From contig VBIQ01000005.1 of assembly GCA_005880985.1 (NCBI GenBank), positions 350,059 to 414,058 on the forward strand: 64,000 nt of DNA, written 5' to 3'. Source of the stretch: Chloroflexota bacterium (GTDB taxonomy: Bacteria > Chloroflexota > Dormibacteria > Aeolococcales > Aeolococcaceae). Below the pieces are notes generated by a model. That model worked only from the letters and a program-made list of their open reading frames with translations, did not search any database and was not told the DNA's origin. A program made the position numbers and the translations under genes. Below, piece after piece: positions 13,368 to 21,337 of the stretch (positions are counted from its first letter, which is position 1; every line of letters begins with the position of its first letter).

Positions 13368-14456
13368 TTGGCGCTCTCGGCGGGCATCGTCGGCCTGCCC
13401 AACGCGGGCAAGTCGACCCTGTTCAACGCCCTGACCCGCGCCGGCGCCACGGTGGGCAACTACCCCTTCACCACCATCGAGCCCAATACCGGCATCGTAC
13501 CGGTGCCCGACGACCGGCTCGAACGGCTGGCGGAGATCTTCCGTCCGCCCAGGGTGATCCCAGCGACGGTGACCTTCACCGACATCGCCGGCCTGGTGCG
13601 CGGTGCCAGCCGCGGCGAGGGACTGGGAAACCAGTTCCTCGGCCACATCCGCGAGACCGACGCCGTGGTCATGGTGGTGCGCAGCTTCTCCGACGACGAT
13701 GTCAGCCACGTCGAAGGTGCGGTCGACCCGGTTCGCGACATCGACCTGCTGGAGCTCGAGCTCGCGCTGGCCGATCTCGAGACGGTGCGCCGCCGGCTGG
13801 ACCGCACGGAGCGGACGGCGCAGCTCCGCAAGGACAAGGAGCTGCAGACGATGGCCACGCTTCGCCGGGTCCAGGAGCATCTCGACCGGGGCGCCCCGGT
13901 GCGCAGTCTGGGGCTGGGCGACGCGGAGCGCGACCTCATCCGCGACCTCTTCCTGCTCACCGCCAAGCCGCTGCTGGTGGTGGCCAACGTCGGCGAGGCC
14001 GACGCCGCTCGCGAGGTCCCAGACGCGGTTGTCGAACGCGCCGCGCGCAGCGGCGGCGAGGCGCTGGCGGTGTCGGCTCGCATCGAGTCGGAGCTGGTGG
14101 AGCTCGAGCCGGAGGATCAGCGAGCCTTCCTCGCCGAGCTCGGGGTCGAGCAGCCAGGCCTTGCCCGCCTGGCGAGGGCCGCCTATCACCTGCTCGACCT
14201 GGTCACCTTCTTCACCGCGGGGGAGAAGGAGGTGCGCGCCTGGACGCTGCCGAGCGGCGGCACCGCGCTCGACGCCGCCGGCAGCATTCACACCGATTTC
14301 GCCCGCGGCTTCATCCGGGCGGAGGTGATCGACGCCGCCGCCCTGATCGACGCCGGCTCCTACGCTGCCGCCCGGGAGCGGGGGCGCCTGCGGCTCGAGG
14401 GGCGGGACTACCCGGTTGAGGACGGCGACGTCGTCCACATCCGGTTCAACGTCTGA
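13368..14456 (+). CDS. ychF: Redox-regulated ribosome-binding ATPase YchF
   Basis: GIVGLPNAGKSTLFN, NYPFTTIEPN, DIAGLVRGASRGEGLGNQFL, IHTDFARGFIRAE, DGDVVHIRFNV. Confidence 0.96.
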   Translation: MALSAGIVGLPNAGKSTLFNALTRAGATVGNYPFTTIEPNTGIVPVPDDRLERLAEIFRPPRVIPATVTFTDIAGLVRGASRGEGLGNQFLGHIRETDAVVMVVRSFSDDDVSHVEGAVDPVRDIDLLELELALADLETVRRRLDRTERTAQLRKDKELQTMATLRRVQEHLDRGAPVRSLGLGDAERDLIRDLFLLTAKPLLVVANVGEADAAREVPDAVVERAARSGGEALAVSARIESELVELEPEDQRAFLAELGVEQPGLARLARAAYHLLDLVTFFTAGEKEVRAWTLPSGGTALDAAGSIHTDFARGFIRAEVIDAAALIDAGSYAAARERGRLRLEGRDYPVEDGDVVHIRFNV

Positions 14457-14490
14457 GCAGCGACAGAGATGGGCGAACCGCGGGGCGGCC

Positions 14491-14511
14491 GAGCCCCTTG
14501 TCACGGGGCTC
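14491..14511. terminator. Hairpin between ychF and the convergent candidate ncRNA
   Basis: GAGCCCC-ttgtcac-GGGGCTC inverted repeat. Confidence 0.55.
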
Positions 14512-14697
14512 AGGAGTCACCGGACTCATCAATGAGGTGTGCGCCCGCCTCGGGCGACGGGCGCAGGCACACGGACGCCGGGGACGGCGGCCATTGCTGG
14601 AAAGATCGGCCGGACCGGTGCAGGGAGCCGGCGTCCGCTGCCTGGCGGGACCCGACGAGCCGGAGGGGTGACCCCTCCCCCACATCTTGTGTCCCGG
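14491..14697 (-). ncRNA. Candidate structured ncRNA (6S-like rod with central bubble)
   Basis: End-to-end pairing: 14667-14675 with 14513-14521, 14654-14663 with 14520-14530, and 14628-14643 with 14565-14581. Mismatches become G-U pairs only on the minus strand. Has its own promoter and a 3' hairpin. Confidence 0.6.
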
Positions 14698-14731
14698 GCG
14701 ACATCCTACCCCCGCATGCTGTGGAGGTCAA
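14677..14731 (-). promoter_or_regulatory. Sigma70-type promoter with two NrdR-box-like 16-mers
   Basis: Minus strand TTGACC(14731-14726)-17 bp-TAGGAT(14708-14703). CCACAGCATGCGGGGG (14724-14709) and ACACAAGATGTGGGGG (14692-14677) are 32 bp apart. Confidence 0.6.
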
Positions 14732-14808
14732 TGGCCTCGGCCGAGGGCGGATGCCGTCCTTCCGCGCCTCGGGGGCTCGCCGACACGCCTGCTACCCTTG
14801 CCGCGTCC

Positions 14809-15222
14809 ATGGCCAAGAAGACCAAGCGGTCGCAGGCCCGGCGCCGTCAACAGCTCCAGCCGCGACCGGGCCCGGCCACCGGGCCGCTTTCCACGGCGAC
14901 GGTGGCGCCGGTGGCCGGTGGCGAGCCCGCCGCTCCCGTCGATCTTCCCGTCGACTCGCCATCGGCAGCGGCGCCTCCCCCGCCGTCGGCGGCGGTCAGG
15001 CGCGTCGGGCGCATCGATCCGGCGGCGCAGCGGGCTACCGCGGCGCGGCAGAGCGCGCGTCAATCGGCGGTCACCATCGCTCCGCTCGACAGCGACGACG
15101 CTGCGATTCCCTTCGATCGGGTGCCCTATGTGCCGGGGGATCTCCGGCGGGTCGCCATCATCGCGGTGCTGATGGTGGTTCTGATCATCATCGCCGACCT
15201 CGTCGTCACTCACGTCACCTGA
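14809..15222 (+). CDS. Hypothetical tail-anchored membrane protein
   Basis: MAKKTKRSQARRRQ, Pro/Ala-rich linker, YVPGDLRR followed by a single C-terminal TM helix; TACCCT -10 at 14793. Confidence 0.75.
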   Translation: MAKKTKRSQARRRQQLQPRPGPATGPLSTATVAPVAGGEPAAPVDLPVDSPSAAAPPPPSAAVRRVGRIDPAAQRATAARQSARQSAVTIAPLDSDDAAIPFDRVPYVPGDLRRVAIIAVLMVVLIIIADLVVTHVT

Positions 15223-15318
15223 CCGTCGGCGCCGCCACAACGACGAGGAATCAGGGCGCAGCGGAGTTGAGGCGGTAGACTTCAGCGGCTGCGCGGCTGC
15301 AGGGGGCAATTCACGCCG

Positions 15319-16491
15319 ATGCGAGTGATTCTCTATACCGGCAAGGGCGGGGTCGGAAAGACCTCGGTCGCCGCTGCCACGGCGGTGCGGTGTGCACGGC
15401 TTGGACACCGCACTCTGGTGCTGAGCACCGACGCCGCCCACAGTCTCGCCGACAGTCTCGACGTCGAGGTCGGCGAGCATCCCAACGAGGTCGCCGAGAA
15501 CCTCTGGGCGCAGGAGGTCAACGCGCTCCACGAGCTGGAGAGTCACTGGGAGAAGATCCACGTCTACCTGAGTGAGCTCTTCGCCTCGCAGGGTGTCGAC
15601 GACATCGTTGCCGAGGAGCTGGCCTCGCCGCCGGGGATGGAAGAGGTGGCCAGCCTGATGTGGATCAAGCACCACCGGCGCACCGAGCAGTTCGACCTGC
15701 TGGTGGTTGACTGCGCTCCCACCGGAGAGACCCTGCAGCTGCTCGCGTTCCCCGACGTGGCCCGCTGGTATCTCAACAAGATCTTCCCCATCGAGCGCCG
15801 GGTGATGAAGGTGGCTCGCCCGGTGGTGCAACCGTTTCTCAGCATCCCCCTCCCGGGCGACGAGATCTTCAGCAGTGTCAAGGAGCTCTTGCTCGACCTG
15901 GAGGGGATGAAGCAGGTCCTCGGCGATCCCAAGGTGTGCACCACGCGCCTGGTTCTCAACCTCGAGAAGATGGTGATCAAGGAGGCGCAGCGAGCCTTCA
16001 CCTATCTCAGCCTCTACGACTATCTCACCGACCTGGTGGTGGTGAACCGGGTGCTCCCGCCGGAGGCCGGAGACGGCTACTTCAGCGGCTGGCGCCAGTC
16101 ACAGGAGCGCTACTCCGAGGTGGTGGACAGCGCCTTCTCACCGATCCCCATCCGCCGCACCCGGCTGTTCGAGCACGAGGTGGTGGGGATCGAGCGGCTC
16201 GACGATATGGCACGGTCGCTCTTCGGCGACGAGGATCCGTCCACCATCTACTACCACTCCGTCCCGCAGCAGGTGCGCAGGCTCGGTACCGGCTACGAGC
16301 TGGTGCTGCAGCTGCCCTTCGTCAGCAAGGATGAGGTCGTCCTCACCCACCGCGAAGGCGAGCTCTTCGTCACCGTCGGCGCGTACAAGCGGGAGATCAG
16401 CCTGCCGCGGGTGCTCGCGGGCAGGCAGACCACCTCGGCCAAGCTCGAAGAGGGCATGCTTCGCATCGGCTTCGGGAGTGCCCGGCGCTGA
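15319..16491 (+). CDS. ArsA/Get3(TRC40)-family ATPase with C-terminal HSP20-like domain
   Basis: GKGGVGKTS deviant Walker A, STDAAHSL, PPGMEE, DCAPTGETL, C-terminal beta-rich GELFVTVG..KREISLP; single ATPase domain. Confidence 0.9.
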   Translation: MRVILYTGKGGVGKTSVAAATAVRCARLGHRTLVLSTDAAHSLADSLDVEVGEHPNEVAENLWAQEVNALHELESHWEKIHVYLSELFASQGVDDIVAEELASPPGMEEVASLMWIKHHRRTEQFDLLVVDCAPTGETLQLLAFPDVARWYLNKIFPIERRVMKVARPVVQPFLSIPLPGDEIFSSVKELLLDLEGMKQVLGDPKVCTTRLVLNLEKMVIKEAQRAFTYLSLYDYLTDLVVVNRVLPPEAGDGYFSGWRQSQERYSEVVDSAFSPIPIRRTRLFEHEVVGIERLDDMARSLFGDEDPSTIYYHSVPQQVRRLGTGYELVLQLPFVSKDEVVLTHREGELFVTVGAYKREISLPRVLAGRQTTSAKLEEGMLRIGFGSARR

Positions 16492-16727
16492 CTGACGAGC
16501 GCTGCGGCATCTGCCCGGGGCGCTTCCTCGGTGAGGCCGGACAGCTGCTGGGTCCGGCCGTCGAGGACATCATTCCCCACGAGGCGCAGGTGCACCTCTT
16601 CAATGCCCAGCGCGAGCTGCTGCTGGCGGTGAAGCTCACCATCGAGCACCACACCCGCTCGCAGCAGGCGGCGGAGCGTCGCGCCCGGCGCCAGCGGCGC
16701 CGCCCGGTCCGCGTCGAGCTGGAATGA
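16488..16727 (+). CDS. Small CxxC protein coupled to ArsA/Get3 (DUF5304-like), probable CTG start
   Basis: Absent from the ORF track. GGGAG at 16474-16478; CTGA overlaps the ATPase stop. Reads (M)TDERCGICPG...HLFNAQRELLLAVK...PVRVELE; its stop overlaps the next ATG. Confidence 0.75.
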   Translation: MTDERCGICPGRFLGEAGQLLGPAVEDIIPHEAQVHLFNAQRELLLAVKLTIEHHTRSQQAAERRARRQRRRPVRVELE

Positions 16728-17470
16728 CCGGCCCGCAGGCCTATATCACCGCGGTCGTCTACGCGCTTCCCGGCCTGATCATCGGCTTCACCCTGCACGA
16801 GCTGGCCCACGCGGCCACCGCCGTGCGGCTCGGCGATCCCACCCCGCGACGTCTCGGCCGGCTCACCCTGGATCCGCGCGAGCACGTCGACCCGGTCGGG
16901 CTGGGCCTGCTGCTGACAGTCGGCTTCGGCTGGGCCAAGCCGGTGGTCTTCAGCCCCGCCTACATCCGCACCGGGCTGCAGCAGGCGGCGGTGGCGGCGG
17001 CGGGACCGCTGACCAACCTGCTGCTCGCGGTGGTCTTCGCGGTGGCGCTGCACGCCGAGCTGGCGACCTCGTCGACCCTGCTGGATCGAGCCGTCCTCAA
17101 CATGTCACTCGGCCAGGGGGGGCCCGACGTCATCCTCTTCAACCTGCTGGTCGAGGCCTTCTTCGTCAACGTCGTGCTCTTCGTCTTCAACAGCCTTCCC
17201 GTCCCGGGCCTCGACGGCTACGCGACGGCGCGCGGGCTGCTCGGCCGGCAGCTCCCCGATGTCTTCCGCTGGATGGAGGCCAACCGGCAGCTCATCTACC
17301 TCGGTCTGATCCTGCTGATCTTCGTGCTTCCCCAGTTTCAAGGCGGCGTCAACCCCCTGTACTCCACCATCCTCCACGTCAACGACTTCCTCTATCACCA
17401 CTTCGTCGACAGCTCGTCGACGGTGGTGGGAAGCCTCCCCAACATTTTCAACCTGTTCCAGCAGCAGTGA
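16724..17470 (+). CDS. Site-2 protease family (M50) membrane metalloprotease
   Basis: HELAH, GWAKPV, AAGPLTNL, FNSLPVPGLDG. Confidence 0.92.
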   Translation: MTGPQAYITAVVYALPGLIIGFTLHELAHAATAVRLGDPTPRRLGRLTLDPREHVDPVGLGLLLTVGFGWAKPVVFSPAYIRTGLQQAAVAAAGPLTNLLLAVVFAVALHAELATSSTLLDRAVLNMSLGQGGPDVILFNLLVEAFFVNVVLFVFNSLPVPGLDGYATARGLLGRQLPDVFRWMEANRQLIYLGLILLIFVLPQFQGGVNPLYSTILHVNDFLYHHFVDSSSTVVGSLPNIFNLFQQQ

Positions 17471-18867
17471 CCGCCGCGCCGACGCCGCGCGAGCTCCCGT
17501 CGGTCGATGCGCTGGCCGCGCATCCGGGGCTGTCGCGATGGCACGAGGCCCCGGCGGTGCGCGCCCGAGCCGCCCGCTCGGTGCTGGAGGAGGAGCGGAC
17601 CGCGCGCCGGGGCGGGACCACCCGCTATCCCGACGGCGACGCGCTCGCGGCCGCGGTGGCGCTGCGACTGGGCCGCCTGCTGGATCCCGGGCCGCGCCGG
17701 GTGATCAACGCGACCGGCACCGTGGTCCACACCAACCTCGGGCGCGCACCCCTCTCCGCGGCGGCACGCGCGGCGGCGGTGCGCGCCGCCGGGTACTGCG
17801 ACCTCGAGTACGACCTCGGCCCCGGCGTGCGCGGGTCGCGACAGGACCACCTGGCACCGCTGGTGGCGGAGCTGTGCGCTGCCGAGGACGCGCTGGTCGT
17901 CACCAACAACGCCGCCGCCGTGCTGCTGACGATGACGGCGCTGTGCCGCGGCGGGGAGGTGCTGGTCTCTCGAGGCGAGGCGGTGGAGATCGGCGGCGGC
18001 TTCCGCATCCCCGATGTGATGCGGCAGTCGGGTGCGCGGATGGTCGATGTCGGCACCACCAACCGCACCCGCGCCGCCGATTACGCCACCGCGATCACCC
18101 CGCGGACCCGGGCCATCGTCCGCGTTCACGCCTCGAACTTCAGCATCCGCGGTTTCACCGAGCGGCCGACCACCGCGGAGTGCGCCACGATCGCGCGCGA
18201 GCACGGGCTGCTGCTGATCGAGGATGCCGGAAGCGGGGCGCTGCTGGACCCGCCGGCCGGGCGACCCGAGCTGGCCGGAGAACCGGTGCTGGCGTCGGTC
18301 GTCGCCGCCGGAGCCGACATCGTGCTCGCCAGTGGCGACAAGCTCTGCGGCGGGCCGCAGGCAGGTGTCGTCGCCGGCCGCGCCGACCCGATCGGCCGAA
18401 TGCGCCGCCACCCGCTGATGCGAGCGCTGCGTCCCGACAAGATGATCGTCGCGGCGCTCGGCGCCACCCTGGCCGCCTACCTGCGGAGCGACGCGGTGGA
18501 GAGCATCCCGGTTCAGCGCATGCTCAACCGCAGCGACGCCGACCTGGCCGGCGACGCCCGGGCGTGGACGGCTCGACTTCGCGACGCCGGGGTGGCGGCG
18601 GAGGCGGTTGCGGCGGCGAGCACGGTCGGCGGCGGCTCGGCGCCGGAAGCGGCGCTGCCGACCACGTGCGTGGTCCTGCCGGGGCCGACGGGGCGGCTGC
18701 TGGCCGCGCTGCGCGCCGCCGATCCTCCGGTGGTGGCCCGCGCCGAGGGCGGCCGCGTCTGGCTCGACCCGCGGACCGTGCTGACCGATGAGGCGGACAC
18801 CCTGATCGACTGCGTCCGCCAAGCCTGGGAGGCGGTGCATCCCACGCCCGTGGGCCGTCCCCGCTGA
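17467..18867 (+). CDS. selA: L-seryl-tRNA(Sec) selenium transferase
   Basis: VINATGTVVHTNLGRAPL, NNAAAVLL, VEIGGGFRIPDVM, GTTNRT, SGDKLCGGPQAG, RALRPDK. Confidence 0.95.
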   Translation: MTAAPTPRELPSVDALAAHPGLSRWHEAPAVRARAARSVLEEERTARRGGTTRYPDGDALAAAVALRLGRLLDPGPRRVINATGTVVHTNLGRAPLSAAARAAAVRAAGYCDLEYDLGPGVRGSRQDHLAPLVAELCAAEDALVVTNNAAAVLLTMTALCRGGEVLVSRGEAVEIGGGFRIPDVMRQSGARMVDVGTTNRTRAADYATAITPRTRAIVRVHASNFSIRGFTERPTTAECATIAREHGLLLIEDAGSGALLDPPAGRPELAGEPVLASVVAAGADIVLASGDKLCGGPQAGVVAGRADPIGRMRRHPLMRALRPDKMIVAALGATLAAYLRSDAVESIPVQRMLNRSDADLAGDARAWTARLRDAGVAAEAVAAASTVGGGSAPEAALPTTCVVLPGPTGRLLAALRAADPPVVARAEGGRVWLDPRTVLTDEADTLIDCVRQAWEAVHPTPVGRPR

Positions 18868-18902
18868 AGACGCCGCGGCACCCCTCGGTCACCGTCGAAG
18901 GG

Positions 18903-19391
18903 GTGGGCTATGCGATCTCCGGAGCCCAGGTCGCCATCGTCGACGGCGACCTGGTGCTGCTGCAGCTGCGGCCCTGGCCGCCGGGATGGGAGCTGCCCGG
19001 CGGTCATTGCCAGGGCGATGAGGACCCGGCCGGCTGTGCCGCCCGCGAGGCGGAGGAGGAGACGGGGCTGTCGATCACCATCGCCGGCCTGGTCGGCGTC
19101 TACAGCTGGGCAGGGCTGCGCCGCAGCGCCGACGCGGTCTACTGGGCCGACGCCACCGGGGCCCGGCCGCGCCGCAGCCTGGAGTCGCTCCGGGCGCGCT
19201 TCGTGTCGCCCGCCGAGCTGCCCGCGACCGTCTTCCCCTGGATCCCGCAGCGGGTGCGCGACAGCGTCGCCGCCGCCGCCGGCGCGCCGCCGGTGCACCG
19301 CGTCCAGCCCGTCGGGTTGCGCCACGTGCTGTTCTTCGGCGGCCGCTGGGCCGGCTGGCTTCTCGACCGGCTGCGCCGTGGCCGCCGCTGA
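18903..19391 (+). CDS. NUDIX hydrolase
   Basis: WELPGG...DEDPAGCAAREAEEETGL Nudix box. Confidence 0.85.
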   Translation: MGYAISGAQVAIVDGDLVLLQLRPWPPGWELPGGHCQGDEDPAGCAAREAEEETGLSITIAGLVGVYSWAGLRRSADAVYWADATGARPRRSLESLRARFVSPAELPATVFPWIPQRVRDSVAAAAGAPPVHRVQPVGLRHVLFFGGRWAGWLLDRLRRGRR

Positions 19392-19441
19392 CCGGCATCG
19401 GGGAAGGGTGCGGCGCTGATGCGGTGCTACGGTGACCGGCC

Positions 19442-21337
19442 GTGCGATACGTCATCGGCACCGCGGGGCACGTCGACCATGGCAAGTCCTCGCTGGTGCT
19501 GGCGCTGACCGGGACCGATCCCGACCGCCTCGTCGAGGAGAAGCGGCGGGGCATGACCATCGAGCTGGGCTTTGCCTCCTGGACCCTGCCCGGCGGCGAG
19601 CCGGTCGGCATCATCGACGTCCCCGGTCACCGGCGCTTCGTCCGCACCATGCTGGCCGGCGCACAGGGCATCGACCTGGTGCTGCTGGTGATCGCCGCCG
19701 ACGAGGGGGTGATGCCCCAGACGCGCGAGCATCTCGCCATCTGCGAGCTGCTGGGTGCGCAGCGGGCGGTGGTGGCGCTGAGCAAGTCGGACCTCGTCGA
19801 CGGCGACATGCTGGAGCTGGCCCGGGGCGAGGTGCGCGAGGTGATCGCCGCCTCGTCGATGCGCGGCGCGCCGGTCGTCGCCTGCTCGTCGGTGACGGGC
19901 CACGGCCTGGCGGAGCTCGCCACCACCGTTGGGCGGACCCTCGCGTCGGCGACGCCCCGCGCCGATCACGGACGCCCCCGGCTGTACATCGACCGCAGCT
20001 TCTCCCTCCCCGGGTTTGGGACGATCGTGACGGGAACGCTCGAGGGCGGGGCCCTGCACCCCGGAGAGGAGGTGAGCGCGCTTCCCGGCGACCACCGGGC
20101 CCGCATCCGCGGGTTGCAGCACCACGGCCGCGCCGTCGAGCGGGCCGAGCCGGGGACGCGCACCGCGGTCAATCTGACCGGACTGTCGCATCGCGAGCTC
20201 CGCCGCGGCATGGCGCTGGTCCGGCCCGGCGTGCTCGCCGCGACCGCCCGCATCGATGTGCGGGTGCGGCTGCTCGAGGCGGCGCCGGCGGCGCTGCGCC
20301 ACCGTGGCGGGGTCGTCCTCTACCTCGGCACCGCGGAGATCGCGGCCGGGGTCTGGCTGCTCGATGGCGCGGAGCTGGACCCGGGCGCGAGTGGATACGC
20401 CCAGCTCGACCTGGCGACGCCCGTGTGCGCCGCGCCCGGCGATCGCTTCGTCCTCCGTCGCGCCGCTCCCGCCGCGACCCTGGGCGGAGGAGTGGTGCTC
20501 GACATCGCCCCCCATCGGCACCGCCGCCGCGACCGCGAGGTCGCCACTGCCCTGGAGCGGCGCGAGCGGGGAGGCCTCGAGGCGCTGGTCGCCGAGGAGC
20601 TGCGCAAGGCGCGCCTCGGCGCCGAGCCGGCGGCGCTGGTCAGCGTCTGCGGCGCCGGGCGCAAGGAGATCGAGGCCACCCTCGCGCGGCTTGGCCCGCA
20701 GGTTCGGCCGCTCGGCGCCCGCCGGATCGCGGCAGAGCGCTGGACCCAGCTGCGGGAGGCCTCGGCCTCGCTGCTCGAGGCGTTCCACGCCGCCGAGCCG
20801 CTGCGCGCCGGCATGTCGCGGGAGGAATGGCGAAGCCGGTTGCGCCTGCCGGCGGCGGTCGCCACCGATGTCGCCCACGCGCTGAGCTCCGAGGGAGCGC
20901 TCGCCGAACGCGACGCGCAGCTCGCACTCCCGGGTCGCGGTGGCGATGTCCCCGACGCGGCCCGCGCGGCGGCGAACGCGGTGCTCGCGGTACTGGAGAA
21001 GCGCGGCCTCGATCCGCCGCCCATGTCCGAGCTTCGCTCCGCCGGACTGACCCCGCCGCTGCTGCGACTGCTGATCGACGAGCGCCGCGTGGTCCGCATC
21101 GCGCCCGACGTCGTCCTCTCCGCCGGCGCCTACGCGCAGGCCCTCGGCGCGGTCGAGGCGGCGCTCGCGCAGATGGGCGAGGCGACGGTGGCCCAACTTC
21201 GCGACCGCCTCGGCGCCACGCGCCGGGTCGTCGTGCCTCTGCTGGAGAGCCTGGACAGCGCCCGGGTCACCATCCGCGATGGCGACATACGCCGGCTGCG
21301 CCGGCGGCCGTCACCGATGACGTCACCGTCGCGGTGA
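19442..21337 (+). CDS. selB: Selenocysteine-specific elongation factor
   Basis: GTAGHVDHGKSSL, EEKRRGMTIELG, DVPGH, IDRSF, RTAVN, GDRFVLR, C-terminal winged-helix region. Confidence 0.95.
   Translation: MRYVIGTAGHVDHGKSSLVLALTGTDPDRLVEEKRRGMTIELGFASWTLPGGEPVGIIDVPGHRRFVRTMLAGAQGIDLVLLVIAADEGVMPQTREHLAICELLGAQRAVVALSKSDLVDGDMLELARGEVREVIAASSMRGAPVVACSSVTGHGLAELATTVGRTLASATPRADHGRPRLYIDRSFSLPGFGTIVTGTLEGGALHPGEEVSALPGDHRARIRGLQHHGRAVERAEPGTRTAVNLTGLSHRELRRGMALVRPGVLAATARIDVRVRLLEAAPAALRHRGGVVLYLGTAEIAAGVWLLDGAELDPGASGYAQLDLATPVCAAPGDRFVLRRAAPAATLGGGVVLDIAPHRHRRRDREVATALERRERGGLEALVAEELRKARLGAEPAALVSVCGAGRKEIEATLARLGPQVRPLGARRIAAERWTQLREASASLLEAFHAAEPLRAGMSREEWRSRLRLPAAVATDVAHALSSEGALAERDAQLALPGRGGDVPDAARAAANAVLAVLEKRGLDPPPMSELRSAGLTPPLLRLLIDERRVVRIAPDVVLSAGAYAQALGAVEAALAQMGEATVAQLRDRLGATRRVVVPLLESLDSARVTIRDGDIRRLRRRPSPMTSPSR

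What the first reader, a model, noticed from the sequence alone, without database searches (positions are those of the whole stretch)
14491..14731. Unannotated 6S-like rod RNA with its own sigma70 promoter, converging on ychF
Seen: the roughly 350-bp gap after ychF has no credible ORF. On the minus strand it carries TTGACC-17-TAGGAT, then about 165 nt that pair end to end: closing stem GGGGUCACC/GGUGACUCC, CCGGCUCGUC/GAUGAGUCCGG, and apical stem AGGCAGCGGACGCCGG/CCGGCGUCCGUGUGCCU. These enclose an asymmetric central bubble whose 3' side holds a small hairpin (GCGCCCG/CGGGCGC), and a terminal hairpin follows. Three non-Watson-Crick positions are G-U on the minus strand but A-C on the plus strand, which supports the minus orientation. 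Established: a long rod with a central bubble is the 6S RNA (open-promoter mimic) architecture. Inference: this is a lineage-specific 6S/Ms1-like RNAP-binding RNA or a new ncRNA class.
Basis: partly seen in the sequence, partly recalled or inferred. Interest (0 to 1): 0.8.

Follow-up and report, generated by a model that had tools for sequence, protein, structure and literature searches.

The report
NrdR-controlled small RNA gene, not 6S
The gap after ychF holds a conserved small non-coding RNA gene of the uncultured soil bacteria Dormibacteria, and its promoter carries the binding site of NrdR, the repressor that senses DNA building blocks; it does not look like a 6S RNA.

Summary
The promoter and the "apical stem" are real and conserved. 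The end-to-end rod is not.

- **Core unit:** relatives conserve a unit at window 14731-14562, minus strand. It runs -35, NrdR box 1, -10, NrdR box 2, a 5' hairpin (SL1), then a long irregular hairpin (SL2).
- **Structure:** SL2 shows strong covariation.
- **Distribution:** a covariance model finds about one copy in 108 of 151 genomes of the order. It also hits two further families of the class, and none of the genomes sampled outside the class.
- **Position:** the unit always lies between ychF and a small membrane-protein/ArsA operon, but in either orientation. I therefore read it as a self-contained gene.
- **The invariant 5' motif** is a 16-bp NrdR box. A matrix trained on the box pairs before nrdJ, smc, guaB-like/guaA and ftsA-ftsZ-nrdR ranks this promoter fifth genome-wide.
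- **6S/Ms1:** there is no Rfam match. The closing stems are disfavoured and not conserved. A separate sub-threshold 6S candidate lies elsewhere.

Best reading: a new NrdR-repressed sRNA. Its mode of action is unknown. No RNA data were available, so transcription is not shown.

The parts
14726..14731 (-). -35 hexamer TTGACC of the sRNA promoter
   Evidence: Found by the scan and placed. A TTGAC-like -35 just upstream of box 1 is visible in most of the 44 homologues. It is not obvious in several g10 members.
14709..14724 (-). NrdR box 1, CCACAGCATGCGGGGG, filling the -35/-10 spacer
   Evidence: It meets 4 of the 6 published conserved positions (C4, A8, T9, G13) and scores 13.2 bits with a matrix trained on other loci of this genome. 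A box is kept at the same place in all 44 homologues, with 4-6 of 6 positions.
14703..14708 (-). -10 hexamer TAGGAT, the first 6 nt of the 16-bp linker between the two boxes (linker 14708-14693)
14677..14692 (-). NrdR box 2, ACACAAGATGTGGGGG. This is the 'invariant 5' motif' of the RNA, at about +3 to +20.
   Evidence: It meets 6 of 6 conserved positions and scores 20.5 bits. It meets 5-6 of 6 in all 44 homologues.
14646..14696 (-). SL1, the 5' hairpin: CGGGAC/GUCCCG closing, GAUG/CGUC, GGAGGGG/CCCCUCC apical. The start of transcription is predicted at about 14696-14694.
   Evidence: It appears in the MFE folds, with pair probability 0.94-0.97. A 5' hairpin using the GAUGUGGG arm forms in the homologues folded, but in varying registers. 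The start site is inferred from its distance to the -10 and is not shown.
14565..14643 (-). SL2, a long irregular hairpin. It has a basal stem of about 16 bp, an asymmetric pyrimidine-rich internal loop, and an apical stem-loop (14613-14588).
   Evidence: Covariation: 13 of 24 model pairs change on both sides in 40 sequences; 11 in the 20 inverted-type sequences; 17 in 44 sequences. In each case 0 of 500 shuffles reached the observed value. 89-93% of cells pair, against at most 53% when partners are slid. In family f3 a U-run follows SL2.
14540..14565 (-). SL3, UGCGCCCG/CGGGCGCA.
   Evidence: The 3' tails after SL2 do not align between genera.
14491..14511 (.). Hairpin GAGCCCC-N7-GGGGCUC, 35 nt after the ychF stop. 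It is a possible two-way terminator for ychF and the sRNA.
   Evidence: Neither strand has a U-run, and the scan reports no terminator. This role is inferred only.
13368..14456 (+). ychF (context), converging on the sRNA gene
   Evidence: Pfam YchF-GTPase_C and MMR_HSR1.
14809..16491 (+). Context. A 137-aa protein with a basic N-terminus and one C-terminal hydrophobic helix (14809-15222), then an ArsA/Get3-like ATPase (15319-16491). Both are divergent from the sRNA promoter.
   Evidence: The order ychF - RNA - small protein - ArsA holds in the 39 loci mapped wherever the locus reaches those genes.

Best explanation
Window 14731-14562 (minus strand), with a variable 3' tail, is a self-contained gene for a structured small RNA of about 115-170 nt. 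The RNA is specific to the class Dormibacteria.

Its sigma70-type promoter sits inside a canonical NrdR operator. Box 1 fills the -35/-10 spacer, the 16-bp linker carries the -10, and box 2 covers about +3 to +20.

**Proposed working**
- When NrdR is loaded with dATP and ATP, it should bind both boxes and shut the promoter.
- When deoxynucleotides are needed, NrdR should leave and the RNA should be made, together with nrdJ, smc, guaB-like/guaA and ftsA-ftsZ-nrdR.
- The RNA would then act in trans.
- My best guess, at about 0.3, is that its pyrimidine-rich unpaired loops pair with purine-rich ribosome-binding regions of target mRNAs. In that case it would work as RyhB does for Fur. That comparison is recalled from memory.

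**Shown here**
- The unit is conserved.
- SL2 covaries.
- The operator has the NrdR architecture, and its motif matches the boxes in front of the RNR gene.
- No ORF is conserved.
- The unit's orientation is independent of its neighbours.

**Inferred, not shown**
- That the RNA is transcribed.
- Its start and end.
- That NrdR binds.
- That it acts in trans, and on what targets.

It is not a 6S or Ms1 RNA.
For: **Conservation**
- Model R1 finds a match in 77 of 117 genomes of the family, in 15 of 22 genera.
- It finds a match in 108 of 151 genomes of the order.
- It finds full-length matches in 9 of 11 genomes of a further family, f5.
- Model R2 adds 2 of 3 f3 genomes. It finds nothing in the sampled families outside the class: 7 of 151 genomes hit, all in f1, f3 and f5.
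- Almost every genome has one match.

**Structure**
- SL2 covariation is given (figures under 'parts').
- In the two f3 homologues SL2 is followed by UUUUU.

**Independence from neighbours**
- Of 39 mapped loci, 19 have the RNA pointing at the small-protein gene and 20 have it inverted and converging on ychF.
- Both forms occur within genus g10.
- SL2 still covaries among the inverted copies alone.
- From my reading of the sequences (not counted by a tool), the small-protein gene keeps its own TACGCT-like -10 next to its start in both forms.

**Not coding**
- There is no GC3 signal in the gap and no Pfam hit.
- The conserved ATG is followed by TAG in G008 and G024.
- Gaps of 1, 2 and 4 nt occur in the alignment.

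**NrdR operator**
- The published definition is two 16-bp boxes with a 15-16 bp linker and conserved C4, A6, A8, T9, T11, G13 (PMC13584703, passages).
- The window has 16+16+16 bp, with 4/6 and 6/6 positions.
- A matrix trained only on four other loci ranks this site 5th genome-wide at 33.7 bits. The training sites score 35.7-40.3. The next site that is neither a training locus nor its reverse reading scores 18.4.
- Those four loci precede class II RNR nrdJ, smc, an IMPDH-like gene plus guaA, and ftsA-ftsZ-nrdR (Pfam).
- NrdR itself is encoded in this genome.
- All 17 relatives that had usable upstream sequence, of 18 nrdJ loci scanned, carry a tandem with a 16-bp linker before nrdJ. 16 of them score 6+6, and 15 of the 17 reach 25 bits or more.
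- All 44 sRNA homologues keep box-linker-box. The linker is 16 bp in 38, 15 bp in 5 and 14 bp in 1.
Against: - No RNA data exist for this organism, and no RNA run was listed. Transcription, ends and strand therefore rest on sequence logic alone.
- Box 1 is weak by the six-position rule (4/6). On that crude rule the window site scores 10/12, which is no better than about 67 sites per shuffled genome. Its standing depends on the matrix built from this genome's own boxes, on box 2 and on the spacing.
- The wobble test for strand is only mild. There are 43 G.U cells against 25 A.C cells in 814 SL2 cells, on an alignment fitted to this strand.
- In the window neither the scan nor the sequence shows a U-run terminator.
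- The RNA was not found in 7 of 22 genera of the family. No tandem box lies within 1.5 kb of ychF in the 10 loci checked: 8 from genomes with no RNA hit, and 2 from f2 genomes whose RNA lies elsewhere. The RNA is therefore dispensable or replaced in some lineages.
- No target is known. A crude duplex screen gave nothing.
- In f5 and other forward-type genomes the RNA ends only 36-340 nt before the next gene. Read-through as a leader cannot be excluded there.
Confidence: 0.6

Rival explanations
1. It is a 6S- or Ms1-like RNA that binds RNA polymerase by mimicking open promoter DNA.
For: - SL2 is a long helix interrupted by a large asymmetric internal loop.
- Its shape is conserved more than its sequence.
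- In the window the ends can pair into a rod that is only about 6 kcal/mol above the MFE.
- The two g11 genomes also show unusually good 5'/3' pairing: 0 of 38 non-cognate tails did as well.
Against: - There is no 6S or Ms1 match at E<=10 among 4227 Rfam families.
- The closing stems have pair probability of about 0.
- Across 39 genomes cognate 5'/3' pairing is no better than non-cognate: -33.4 versus -32.8 kcal/mol.
- In many inverted-type genomes ychF begins 10-30 nt after SL2, which leaves no room for a 3' closing strand outside coding sequence.
- SL2 alone is about 80 nt, which from memory is roughly half the size of known 6S RNAs.
- A separate full-length sub-threshold 6S match exists in G000 and in 21 of 40 relatives, scoring up to 45.1 bits against a cut-off of 46.4.
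- The published Ms1 synteny is different.
Confidence: 0.06
2. It is a cis-acting, NrdR-controlled 5' leader or attenuator of the small-protein/ArsA operon. The inverted copies would then be derived forms that act differently, for example as antisense to the ychF 3' end, or not at all.
For: - In 19 of 39 mapped loci and in f5 the RNA points at that operon. The gap is 36-340 nt and there is no clear U-run terminator.
- The linkage to this operon is invariant.
Against: - 20 of 39 loci have the unit inverted, yet the promoter, the boxes and SL2 are all kept and SL2 still covaries.
- Both forms occur within one genus, and f3 also has an inverted copy.
- By eye, the small-protein gene keeps its own -10 next to its start codon in both forms.
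- The f3 copies end in hairpin plus U-run.
Confidence: 0.15
3. There is no functional RNA. The conserved parts would act as DNA: an NrdR binding site (decoy or local regulator) next to a hairpin that serves as a transcription terminator for neighbouring genes.
For: - Much of the strongest sequence conservation (-35, boxes, -10, the 'invariant' 5' motif) is explained at the DNA level.
- The short 5' helix of the model is a by-product of the palindromic box and hardly varies.
- In inverted-type genomes SL2 abuts the ychF stop.
Against: - SL2 keeps a fixed order and orientation relative to the promoter in all 44 homologues, whichever way the unit lies.
- In forward-type genomes SL2 is about 800 nt from ychF.
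- The internal loops and the apical stem are conserved beyond what a terminator needs.
- G.U cells outnumber A.C cells on the RNA strand, 43 to 25.
Confidence: 0.1
4. It encodes a small protein (the minus-strand ORFs of 79 or 73 aa).
For: The conserved motif contains an ATG at 14685 that opens a 79-aa frame in the window.
Against: - There is no codon-position GC signal and no Pfam match.
- ATG is followed by TAG in G008 and G024.
- Frames differ between genera, and gaps are not multiples of three.
- The ATG is explained as positions 8-10 of NrdR box 2.
Confidence: 0.02

Closest known systems
NrdR operators of ribonucleotide reductase operons (two 16-bp NrdR boxes)
   Same: It has two partially palindromic 16-bp boxes and a 16-bp linker. 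The conserved positions C4/A8/T9/G13 (box 1) and all six (box 2) are present. The site overlaps the core promoter. The same motif stands before nrdJ in this genome and in the 17 relatives with usable upstream sequence.
   Different: The promoter drives a non-coding RNA, not an RNR gene. In E. coli and P. aeruginosa only RNR operons were reported to carry paired boxes (bioRxiv 10.1101/2025.03.28.645925, passages). Here paired boxes also precede smc, a guaB-like gene plus guaA, and ftsA-ftsZ-nrdR.
Repressor-controlled trans-acting sRNAs such as Fur/RyhB (recalled from memory, not tested)
   Same: A metabolite-sensing repressor sits on the promoter of a short structured RNA that has its own terminator-like hairpin. 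This would extend the regulon after transcription.
   Different: No target, chaperone or phenotype is known. The regulator senses dATP/ATP, not iron. No sequence relationship was tested.
6S RNA (Rfam RF00013)
   Same: It is a single-copy, structured, promoter-driven RNA with a helix interrupted by a large internal loop.
   Different: There is no model match. The conserved core is two hairpins of about 115-135 nt, not a rod of about 185 nt closed by its ends. A separate 6S-like candidate lies at G000:C2:45487-45670.
Ms1 RNA of Actinobacteria
   Same: It is a lineage-restricted structured sRNA that standard homology models miss, found through conserved gene neighbourhood.
   Different: Ms1 lies beside HAD-IB hydrolase/oxidoreductase genes and is known only from Actinobacteria (PMC9130861, abstract and passages). 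This RNA lies between ychF and an ArsA operon in Dormibacteria, and from memory it is less than half the size of Ms1.
C-rich-loop sRNAs of high-GC bacteria, e.g. 6C RNA (recalled from memory)
   Same: It is made of GC-rich hairpins with pyrimidine-rich unpaired stretches. CUCCC is seen in the window, and CCUCC-type runs in f2, f3 and f5 (read by eye).
   Different: There is no Rfam 6C match. The pyrimidine-rich runs are not at a fixed place and are missing in some genera.

Membership tests
6S RNA (RF00013) | Match to the family covariance model | tested here: not met
   No hit at the gathering score in the 64-kb window. No 6S hit at E<=10 in 14350-14900.
6S RNA (RF00013) | 5' and 3' ends pair into a closing stem, giving a rod of about 180 nt | tested here: not met
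   The closing stems have pair probability 0.000-0.002. The enforced fold is -107.7 against -113.5 kcal/mol. Cognate 5'/3' pairing equals non-cognate across 39 genomes.
6S RNA (RF00013) | Large central bubble flanked by two long helices | tested here: inconclusive
   SL2 has an asymmetric internal loop between a stem of about 16 bp and one of about 7 bp. Whether such short helices would suffice was not tested.
6S RNA (RF00013) | Binds sigma70 holoenzyme and templates pRNA | not testable with these tools
   This needs biochemistry.
Ms1 RNA | Conserved neighbourhood: HAD-IB hydrolase / oxidoreductase | tested here: not met
   The neighbours are ychF and the small-protein/ArsA operon in all 39 mapped loci. 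Ms1 synteny is taken from PMC9130861.
Ms1 RNA | Binds RNA polymerase core | not testable with these tools
   This needs biochemistry.
NrdR regulon (operator-bearing promoter) | Two 16-bp boxes separated by 15-16 bp | tested here: met
   The window has 16+16+16 bp. Of 44 homologues, 38 have a 16-bp linker, 5 have 15 bp and 1 has 14 bp. The definition is from PMC13584703.
NrdR regulon (operator-bearing promoter) | Conserved positions C4, A6, A8, T9, T11, G13 in each box | tested here: met
   Box 2 has 6/6. Box 1 has 4/6, including C4 and G13, which the paper calls critical. Box 1 is met only in part.
NrdR regulon (operator-bearing promoter) | Same motif in front of RNR genes of the same organism and its relatives | tested here: met
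   A tandem precedes nrdJ in G000. It also precedes nrdJ in all 17 relatives with usable upstream sequence. The matrix rank is 5th at 33.7 bits.
NrdR regulon (operator-bearing promoter) | nrdR gene present | tested here: met
   Zn_ribbon_NrdR plus ATP-cone at G000:C5, downstream of ftsA-ftsZ.
NrdR regulon (operator-bearing promoter) | NrdR binds and represses in a dATP/ATP-dependent way | not testable with these tools
   This needs EMSA/MST and expression data.
Independent trans-acting sRNA gene | Own promoter, own end, no ORF, function independent of the neighbouring gene | tested here: inconclusive
   The promoter is conserved. No ORF is conserved. Orientation flips in 20 of 39 loci with the structure kept. 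A U-run after SL2 is seen only in f3. Transcript ends and targets are not shown.

The most novel reading that the evidence does not exclude
This would be the first regulatory RNA placed under NrdR. NrdR gauges the dATP/ATP pool, and the RNA would be switched on together with nrdJ, smc, ftsA-ftsZ and guanine-nucleotide genes. The RNA would carry the 'time to replicate' signal to post-transcriptional targets. In these dormancy-prone soil bacteria, NrdR would then be a cell-cycle regulator with an RNA arm, rather than a repressor specific to ribonucleotide reductase.
Probability: 0.4. Interest if true: 0.75.

Novelty: new variant of a known kind. Interest (0 to 1): 0.6.

Why it matters
NrdR is described as a repressor dedicated to ribonucleotide reductase genes. 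The passages I read say that in E. coli and P. aeruginosa only RNR operons carry paired boxes.

A canonical paired operator on a conserved non-coding RNA gene would widen that picture. So would the paired operators before smc, ftsA-ftsZ-nrdR and guanine-nucleotide genes. Together they suggest a replication and cell-division regulon with an RNA member.

The finding also gives Dormibacteria, a class with no cultured member to my knowledge, its first lineage-specific RNA family. A covariance model for genome annotation now exists for it.

The NrdR part is directly testable. The passages report that NrdR from S. coelicolor and from E. coli each bound the other's native NrdR site in vitro.

Tried and rejected
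- **Rfam:** 0 hits at gathering in the 64-kb window. Only two chance hits (mir-564, Ms_AS-1; E 5.8 and 8) outside the element.
- **RNA evidence:** no RNA holder was listed. All 12 runs are soil DNA runs, and 2 of them may be the source of this DNA.
- **Long-range rod closure:** tested by cognate versus non-cognate duplex energies and rejected as a family trait.
- **Constraint folds:**
  - The constrained fold ignored the constraint and returned the unconstrained structure.
  - redid it with the overlap removed.
- **Target search:** RNAduplex of the 136-nt core against -40..+20 of 1941 crude ORF calls. Energies track GC content (mean -58.5). nrdJ, smc and guaB-like rank 1755, 1347 and 1471. The screen is uninformative.
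- **Six-position tandem scan:** on its own it does not single out the window site, which scores 10/12.
- **Pattern scan of genome contigs:**
  - Only 17 of the 80 are family members by model R2. The rest are chance matches.
- **MAFFT/RNAalifold on 11 sequences:** gave only part of SL2 and the palindromic 5' helix.
- **Early misreading:** I first read the spacer motif as a longer palindrome different from the 5' motif. The 32-bp register corrected this.
- **Weak f3 hit G252 (E 0.003):** it has no promoter or boxes and is rejected.
- **SL1:** its register differs between genera, so I made no formal covariation count for it.
Full report
**1. What is in the window**

ychF ends at 14456 (Pfam). The next real gene is a 137-aa protein starting at ATG 14809. 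It has a basic N-terminus and one C-terminal hydrophobic helix. An ArsA/Get3-like ATPase follows it.

The 352 bp in between show no third-position GC bias, although both flanking genes do. The only promoter-like site in 14300-14950 is TTGACC-17-TAGGAT on the minus strand, at 14731..14703. None was expected in 50 shuffles.

Rfam gives nothing at gathering scores in the 64 kb. At E<=10 around the element it gives only two chance hits that lie outside it.

**2. The element is conserved, and what is conserved is not the rod**

Sensitive searches of the DNA downstream of ychF in 30 relatives first found similarity to window 14561-14757, in both orientations.

Eleven copies share four features:
- a -35/-10 promoter;
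- an almost invariant CCACAAGATGTGG;
- a 5' hairpin (SL1);
- a long hairpin (SL2) of the form GGCAGCGGGCGCCGG...CAUCCGGCGCCCGCUGCC.

A covariance model built from them (R1) gave these counts:
- 77 of 117 genomes of the family, in 15 of 22 genera;
- 108 of 151 genomes of the order (f1 72/106, f2 35/44, not counting G000);
- 9 of 11 genomes of a further family, f5.

A second model (R2) was run on 151 genomes spread over the phylum. It hit 7 genomes: G000, one other f1 genome, 2 of 3 in f3, and 3 of 3 in f5. It hit none in the other families sampled.

These tallies include a few genomes flagged as unpublished (G002, G025, G039, G044, G048, G056, G063). No alignment or sequence-level claim here rests on them.

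Record titles of named homologues place the family in Candidatus Dormibacterota/Dormibacteria. Of 80 listed pattern matches, 17 are true members by R2. Of those 17:
- 15 are titled Dormibacter-type, including Candidatus Aeolococcus gillhamiae;
- one is titled 'Chloroflexi bacterium';
- one is titled 'Saccharimonadales'.

The runs that hold the window are soil metagenomes.

**3. Structure**

SL2 is well supported by covariation.

| Alignment | Sequences | Pairs changed on both sides (of 24) | Cells paired | Paired when partners slid | Shuffles reaching observed |
|---|---|---|---|---|---|
| A2 | 40 | 13 | 93.1% | at most 46% | 0 of 500 |
| A3 (inverted copies only) | 20 | 11 | 88.6% | at most 45% | 0 of 500 |
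| A4 (with f5) | 44 | 17 | 91.8% | at most 53% | 0 of 500 |

These alignments were fitted to the model, which flatters the counts.

SL2 has three parts:
- a basal stem of about 16 bp;
- an asymmetric, pyrimidine-rich internal loop;
- an apical stem-loop whose sequence changes freely while its pairing is kept.

SL1 forms in the homologues I folded, but in different registers. I did not score it formally.

- In the window they have pair probability 0.000-0.002. SL1 has 0.94-0.97.
- They cost about 6 kcal/mol: -107.7 or -107.4 against -113.5.
- Across 39 genomes, a 5' segment pairs no better with its own 3' tail than with tails of other genomes. The means are -33.4 and -32.8 kcal/mol.
- For the window, 6 of 38 foreign tails do as well as its own. 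Only the two g11 genomes stand out.

The 3' tails do not align between genera. In several inverted-type genomes the ychF stop lies 10-30 nt after SL2. In the two f3 homologues SL2 is followed by UUUUU, the form of an intrinsic terminator, which would give an RNA of about 115 nt.

The conserved RNA is therefore two successive hairpins. SL2 is probably its end. It is not a rod closed by its termini.

**4. It behaves as a gene of its own**

In 39 mapped loci the order ychF - RNA - small protein - ArsA holds wherever the locus reaches those genes. The RNA unit, with promoter, SL1 and SL2 always in the same internal order, points towards the small-protein gene in 19 loci. It points towards ychF in 20, the window among them.

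Genus g10 contains both forms. One f3 genome has the inverted form. SL2 covaries among the inverted copies alone.

By eye, the small-protein gene keeps a TACGCT-like -10 a few bases before its start in both forms. It therefore does not need the RNA promoter.

The frame opened by the conserved ATG is not kept. ATG is followed by TAG in G008 and G024, and alignment gaps are of 1, 2 and 4 nt.

**5. The promoter is an NrdR operator**

I searched the organism's own genome for the invariant motif. The same motif turned up twice, 32 nt apart, at two other places. One of them is in front of a ribonucleotide reductase gene.

The literature defines the NrdR site as two partially palindromic 16-bp boxes separated by 15-16 bp. 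The conserved positions are C4, A6, A8, T9, T11 and G13, and C4 and G13 are critical (PMC13584703, abstract and passages).

On the window's minus strand the layout is as follows.

| Element | Coordinates | Sequence | Conserved positions |
|---|---|---|---|
| -35 | 14731-14726 | TTGACC | not applicable |
| Box 1 | 14724-14709 | CCACAGCATGCGGGGG | 4 of 6 |
| Linker (starts with the -10 TAGGAT) | 14708-14693 | TAGGATGTCGCCCGGG | not applicable |
| Box 2 | 14692-14677 | ACACAAGATGTGGGGG | 6 of 6 |

A scan using only the six conserved positions finds six loci scoring 11-12 of 12, all with 16-bp linkers. Because the boxes are near-palindromic each locus appears on both strands, giving 12 hits. Three shuffled genomes together gave 4 hits. 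The window site scores 10, which is not exceptional by itself.

A matrix trained on the eight boxes of four other loci ranks the window site fifth in the genome at 33.7 bits.
- The four training loci score 35.7-40.3.
- The next three entries in the ranking are reverse-strand readings of training loci.
- The next independent site scores 18.4.

The four training loci precede these genes (Pfam):
- class II B12-dependent RNR (nrdJ);
- smc;
- an IMPDH-family gene plus guaA;
- ftsA-ftsZ-nrdR.

NrdR itself has its Zn-ribbon and ATP-cone.

Of 18 nrdJ loci of relatives that I scanned, one lacked upstream sequence. All the other 17 have a tandem with a 16-bp linker before nrdJ. In 16 of them both boxes score 6 of 6. 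In 15 the pair reaches 25 bits.

All 44 sRNA homologues, across f1, f2 and f5, keep the box-linker-box layout. The linker is 16 bp in 38, 15 bp in 5 and 14 bp in 1. Box 2 scores 5-6 of 6 and box 1 scores 4-6 of 6.

This explains the 'invariant 5' motif' at the DNA level. It also means the short 5' helix of my models is a by-product of the palindrome, not evidence for RNA structure.

**6. How it most likely works**

By analogy with characterised NrdR sites, NrdR loaded with dATP and ATP should occupy about -33 to +20 and block the promoter. With ATP alone it should leave. This mechanism is taken from abstracts seen only in the listing (PMC9110341, bioRxiv 10.1101/2024.05.27.596032).

The RNA would then be made together with the genes for deoxynucleotide supply, guanine nucleotides, chromosome condensation and division.

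What the RNA does next is inference. Three things point to action in trans:
- its independence from its neighbours;
- its discrete hairpin end;
- its pyrimidine-rich unpaired stretches. CUCCC is seen in the window, and CCUCC-type runs in f2, f3 and f5 (read by eye).

I favour pairing with purine-rich ribosome-binding regions, at about 0.3. A crude duplex screen could not test this in a 72% GC genome.

**7. Why not 6S or Ms1**

Beyond the points in paragraph 3, G000 has a full-length match to the 6S model elsewhere, at C2:45487-45670. It scores 26.4 bits against a cut-off of 46.4, with the closing stem and bubble aligned.

In the search of G000 plus 40 relatives, 22 of 41 genomes (G000 included) have one such sub-threshold match. 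Scores reach 45.1 bits, and the loci are unrelated to ychF. Some of these genomes also carry the present RNA, for example G020.

Ms1 is defined by its HAD-IB hydrolase/oxidoreductase neighbourhood and is known only in Actinobacteria (PMC9130861, outline, abstract and passages).

**8. Novelty and limits**

I found no paper describing an sRNA under NrdR or any ncRNA of Dormibacteria.
- 25 papers held at least 3 of the 4 terms, and 12 were listed. I read passages of two.
- none of the 12 listed papers contains 'Dormibacter'.

These are narrow searches of an open-access library, and supplements were closed.

A 2025 preprint reports that in E. coli and P. aeruginosa only RNR operons have paired boxes. 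That makes the paired sites here unusual.

The limits are these:
- There are no expression data at all.
- Box 1 is weak in f1.
- The strand test by wobble pairs is only mild (43 G.U against 25 A.C).
- The RNA was not found in 7 of 22 genera of the family.
- In the 10 loci checked there is no tandem box within 1.5 kb of ychF. Eight are from genomes with no RNA hit, and two are from f2 genomes whose RNA lies elsewhere.

**Verdict**

This is a real, conserved and previously undescribed RNA gene. Its regulation can be read from the DNA. Its 6S-like interpretation does not hold.

Noticed in passing
G000:C2:45487-45670 (+), locus L067 1501-1684: This is a full-length but sub-threshold match to the 6S model (26.4 bits; cut-off 46.4). 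One such hit per genome occurs in 22 of the 41 genomes searched (G000 included), scoring up to 45.1 bits. It is probably the true, divergent 6S RNA of Dormibacteria, which Rfam's threshold misses.
   Followed up: partly
G000:C2:10787-10834; C5:44531-44578; C12:321056-321103 (the last is about 29 kb upstream of the window, on the same contig): Paired NrdR boxes with 16-bp linkers also precede smc, ftsA-ftsZ-nrdR and an IMPDH-like gene plus guaA. This suggests an NrdR regulon that reaches chromosome segregation, cell division and guanine nucleotides. I did not test whether these sites are conserved in relatives.
   Followed up: partly
window 14809-15222 (+) and 15319-16491 (+): A 137-aa protein with a basic N-terminus (MAKKTKRSQARRR...) and a single C-terminal hydrophobic helix, looking like a tail-anchored protein, sits directly before an ArsA/Get3-like ATPase. 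The pairing is kept in f1 and f2. In f5 a longer protein (about 262 aa) with a similar basic N-terminus takes the place after the RNA. Its start lies about 10 nt after a conserved TACGCT-like -10, so the mRNA may be nearly leaderless.
   Followed up: partly
window 16724-21337 (+): Downstream of the ArsA gene lie an M50 peptidase, selA, a NUDIX hydrolase and selB, which are selenocysteine machinery. No tRNA of any kind reached Rfam's gathering score in the 64 kb, so no tRNA-Sec gene (selC) was seen here.
   Followed up: no
L009 (G010) about 1070-1200, downstream of the RNA: A module of the form GCGCC-NNN-GGCGC followed by GGGG(G)UUUGC is repeated four to five times in tandem between the RNA and ychF. 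The module is complementary to the SL1 loop of that genome's RNA. This explains why the g11 genomes alone stand out in the 5'/3' pairing test.
   Followed up: no
L078, L080, L082, L085 (genus g10), between the RNA and ychF: A conserved stretch, UCUUGACAGAGGGGCGAUGCGCCCCUCUC, combines a strong hairpin with a TTGACA word. It recurs after a first strong hairpin. It may be the ychF terminator or a further small element.
   Followed up: no
nrdJ loci of G012, G014, G018, G007 (and G002, unpublished): The class II RNR gene matches in two or three pieces within one open frame of about 1379-1735 aa. This looks like intein insertions.
   Followed up: no
L156 (record titled Candidatus Saccharimonadales) and L157 (titled Chloroflexi bacterium): Both carry a full-scoring copy of this Dormibacteria RNA (108.8 and 104.3 bits; the matches are 68-72% GC). 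The Saccharimonadales label looks like a mis-binned or mislabelled contig.
   Followed up: no
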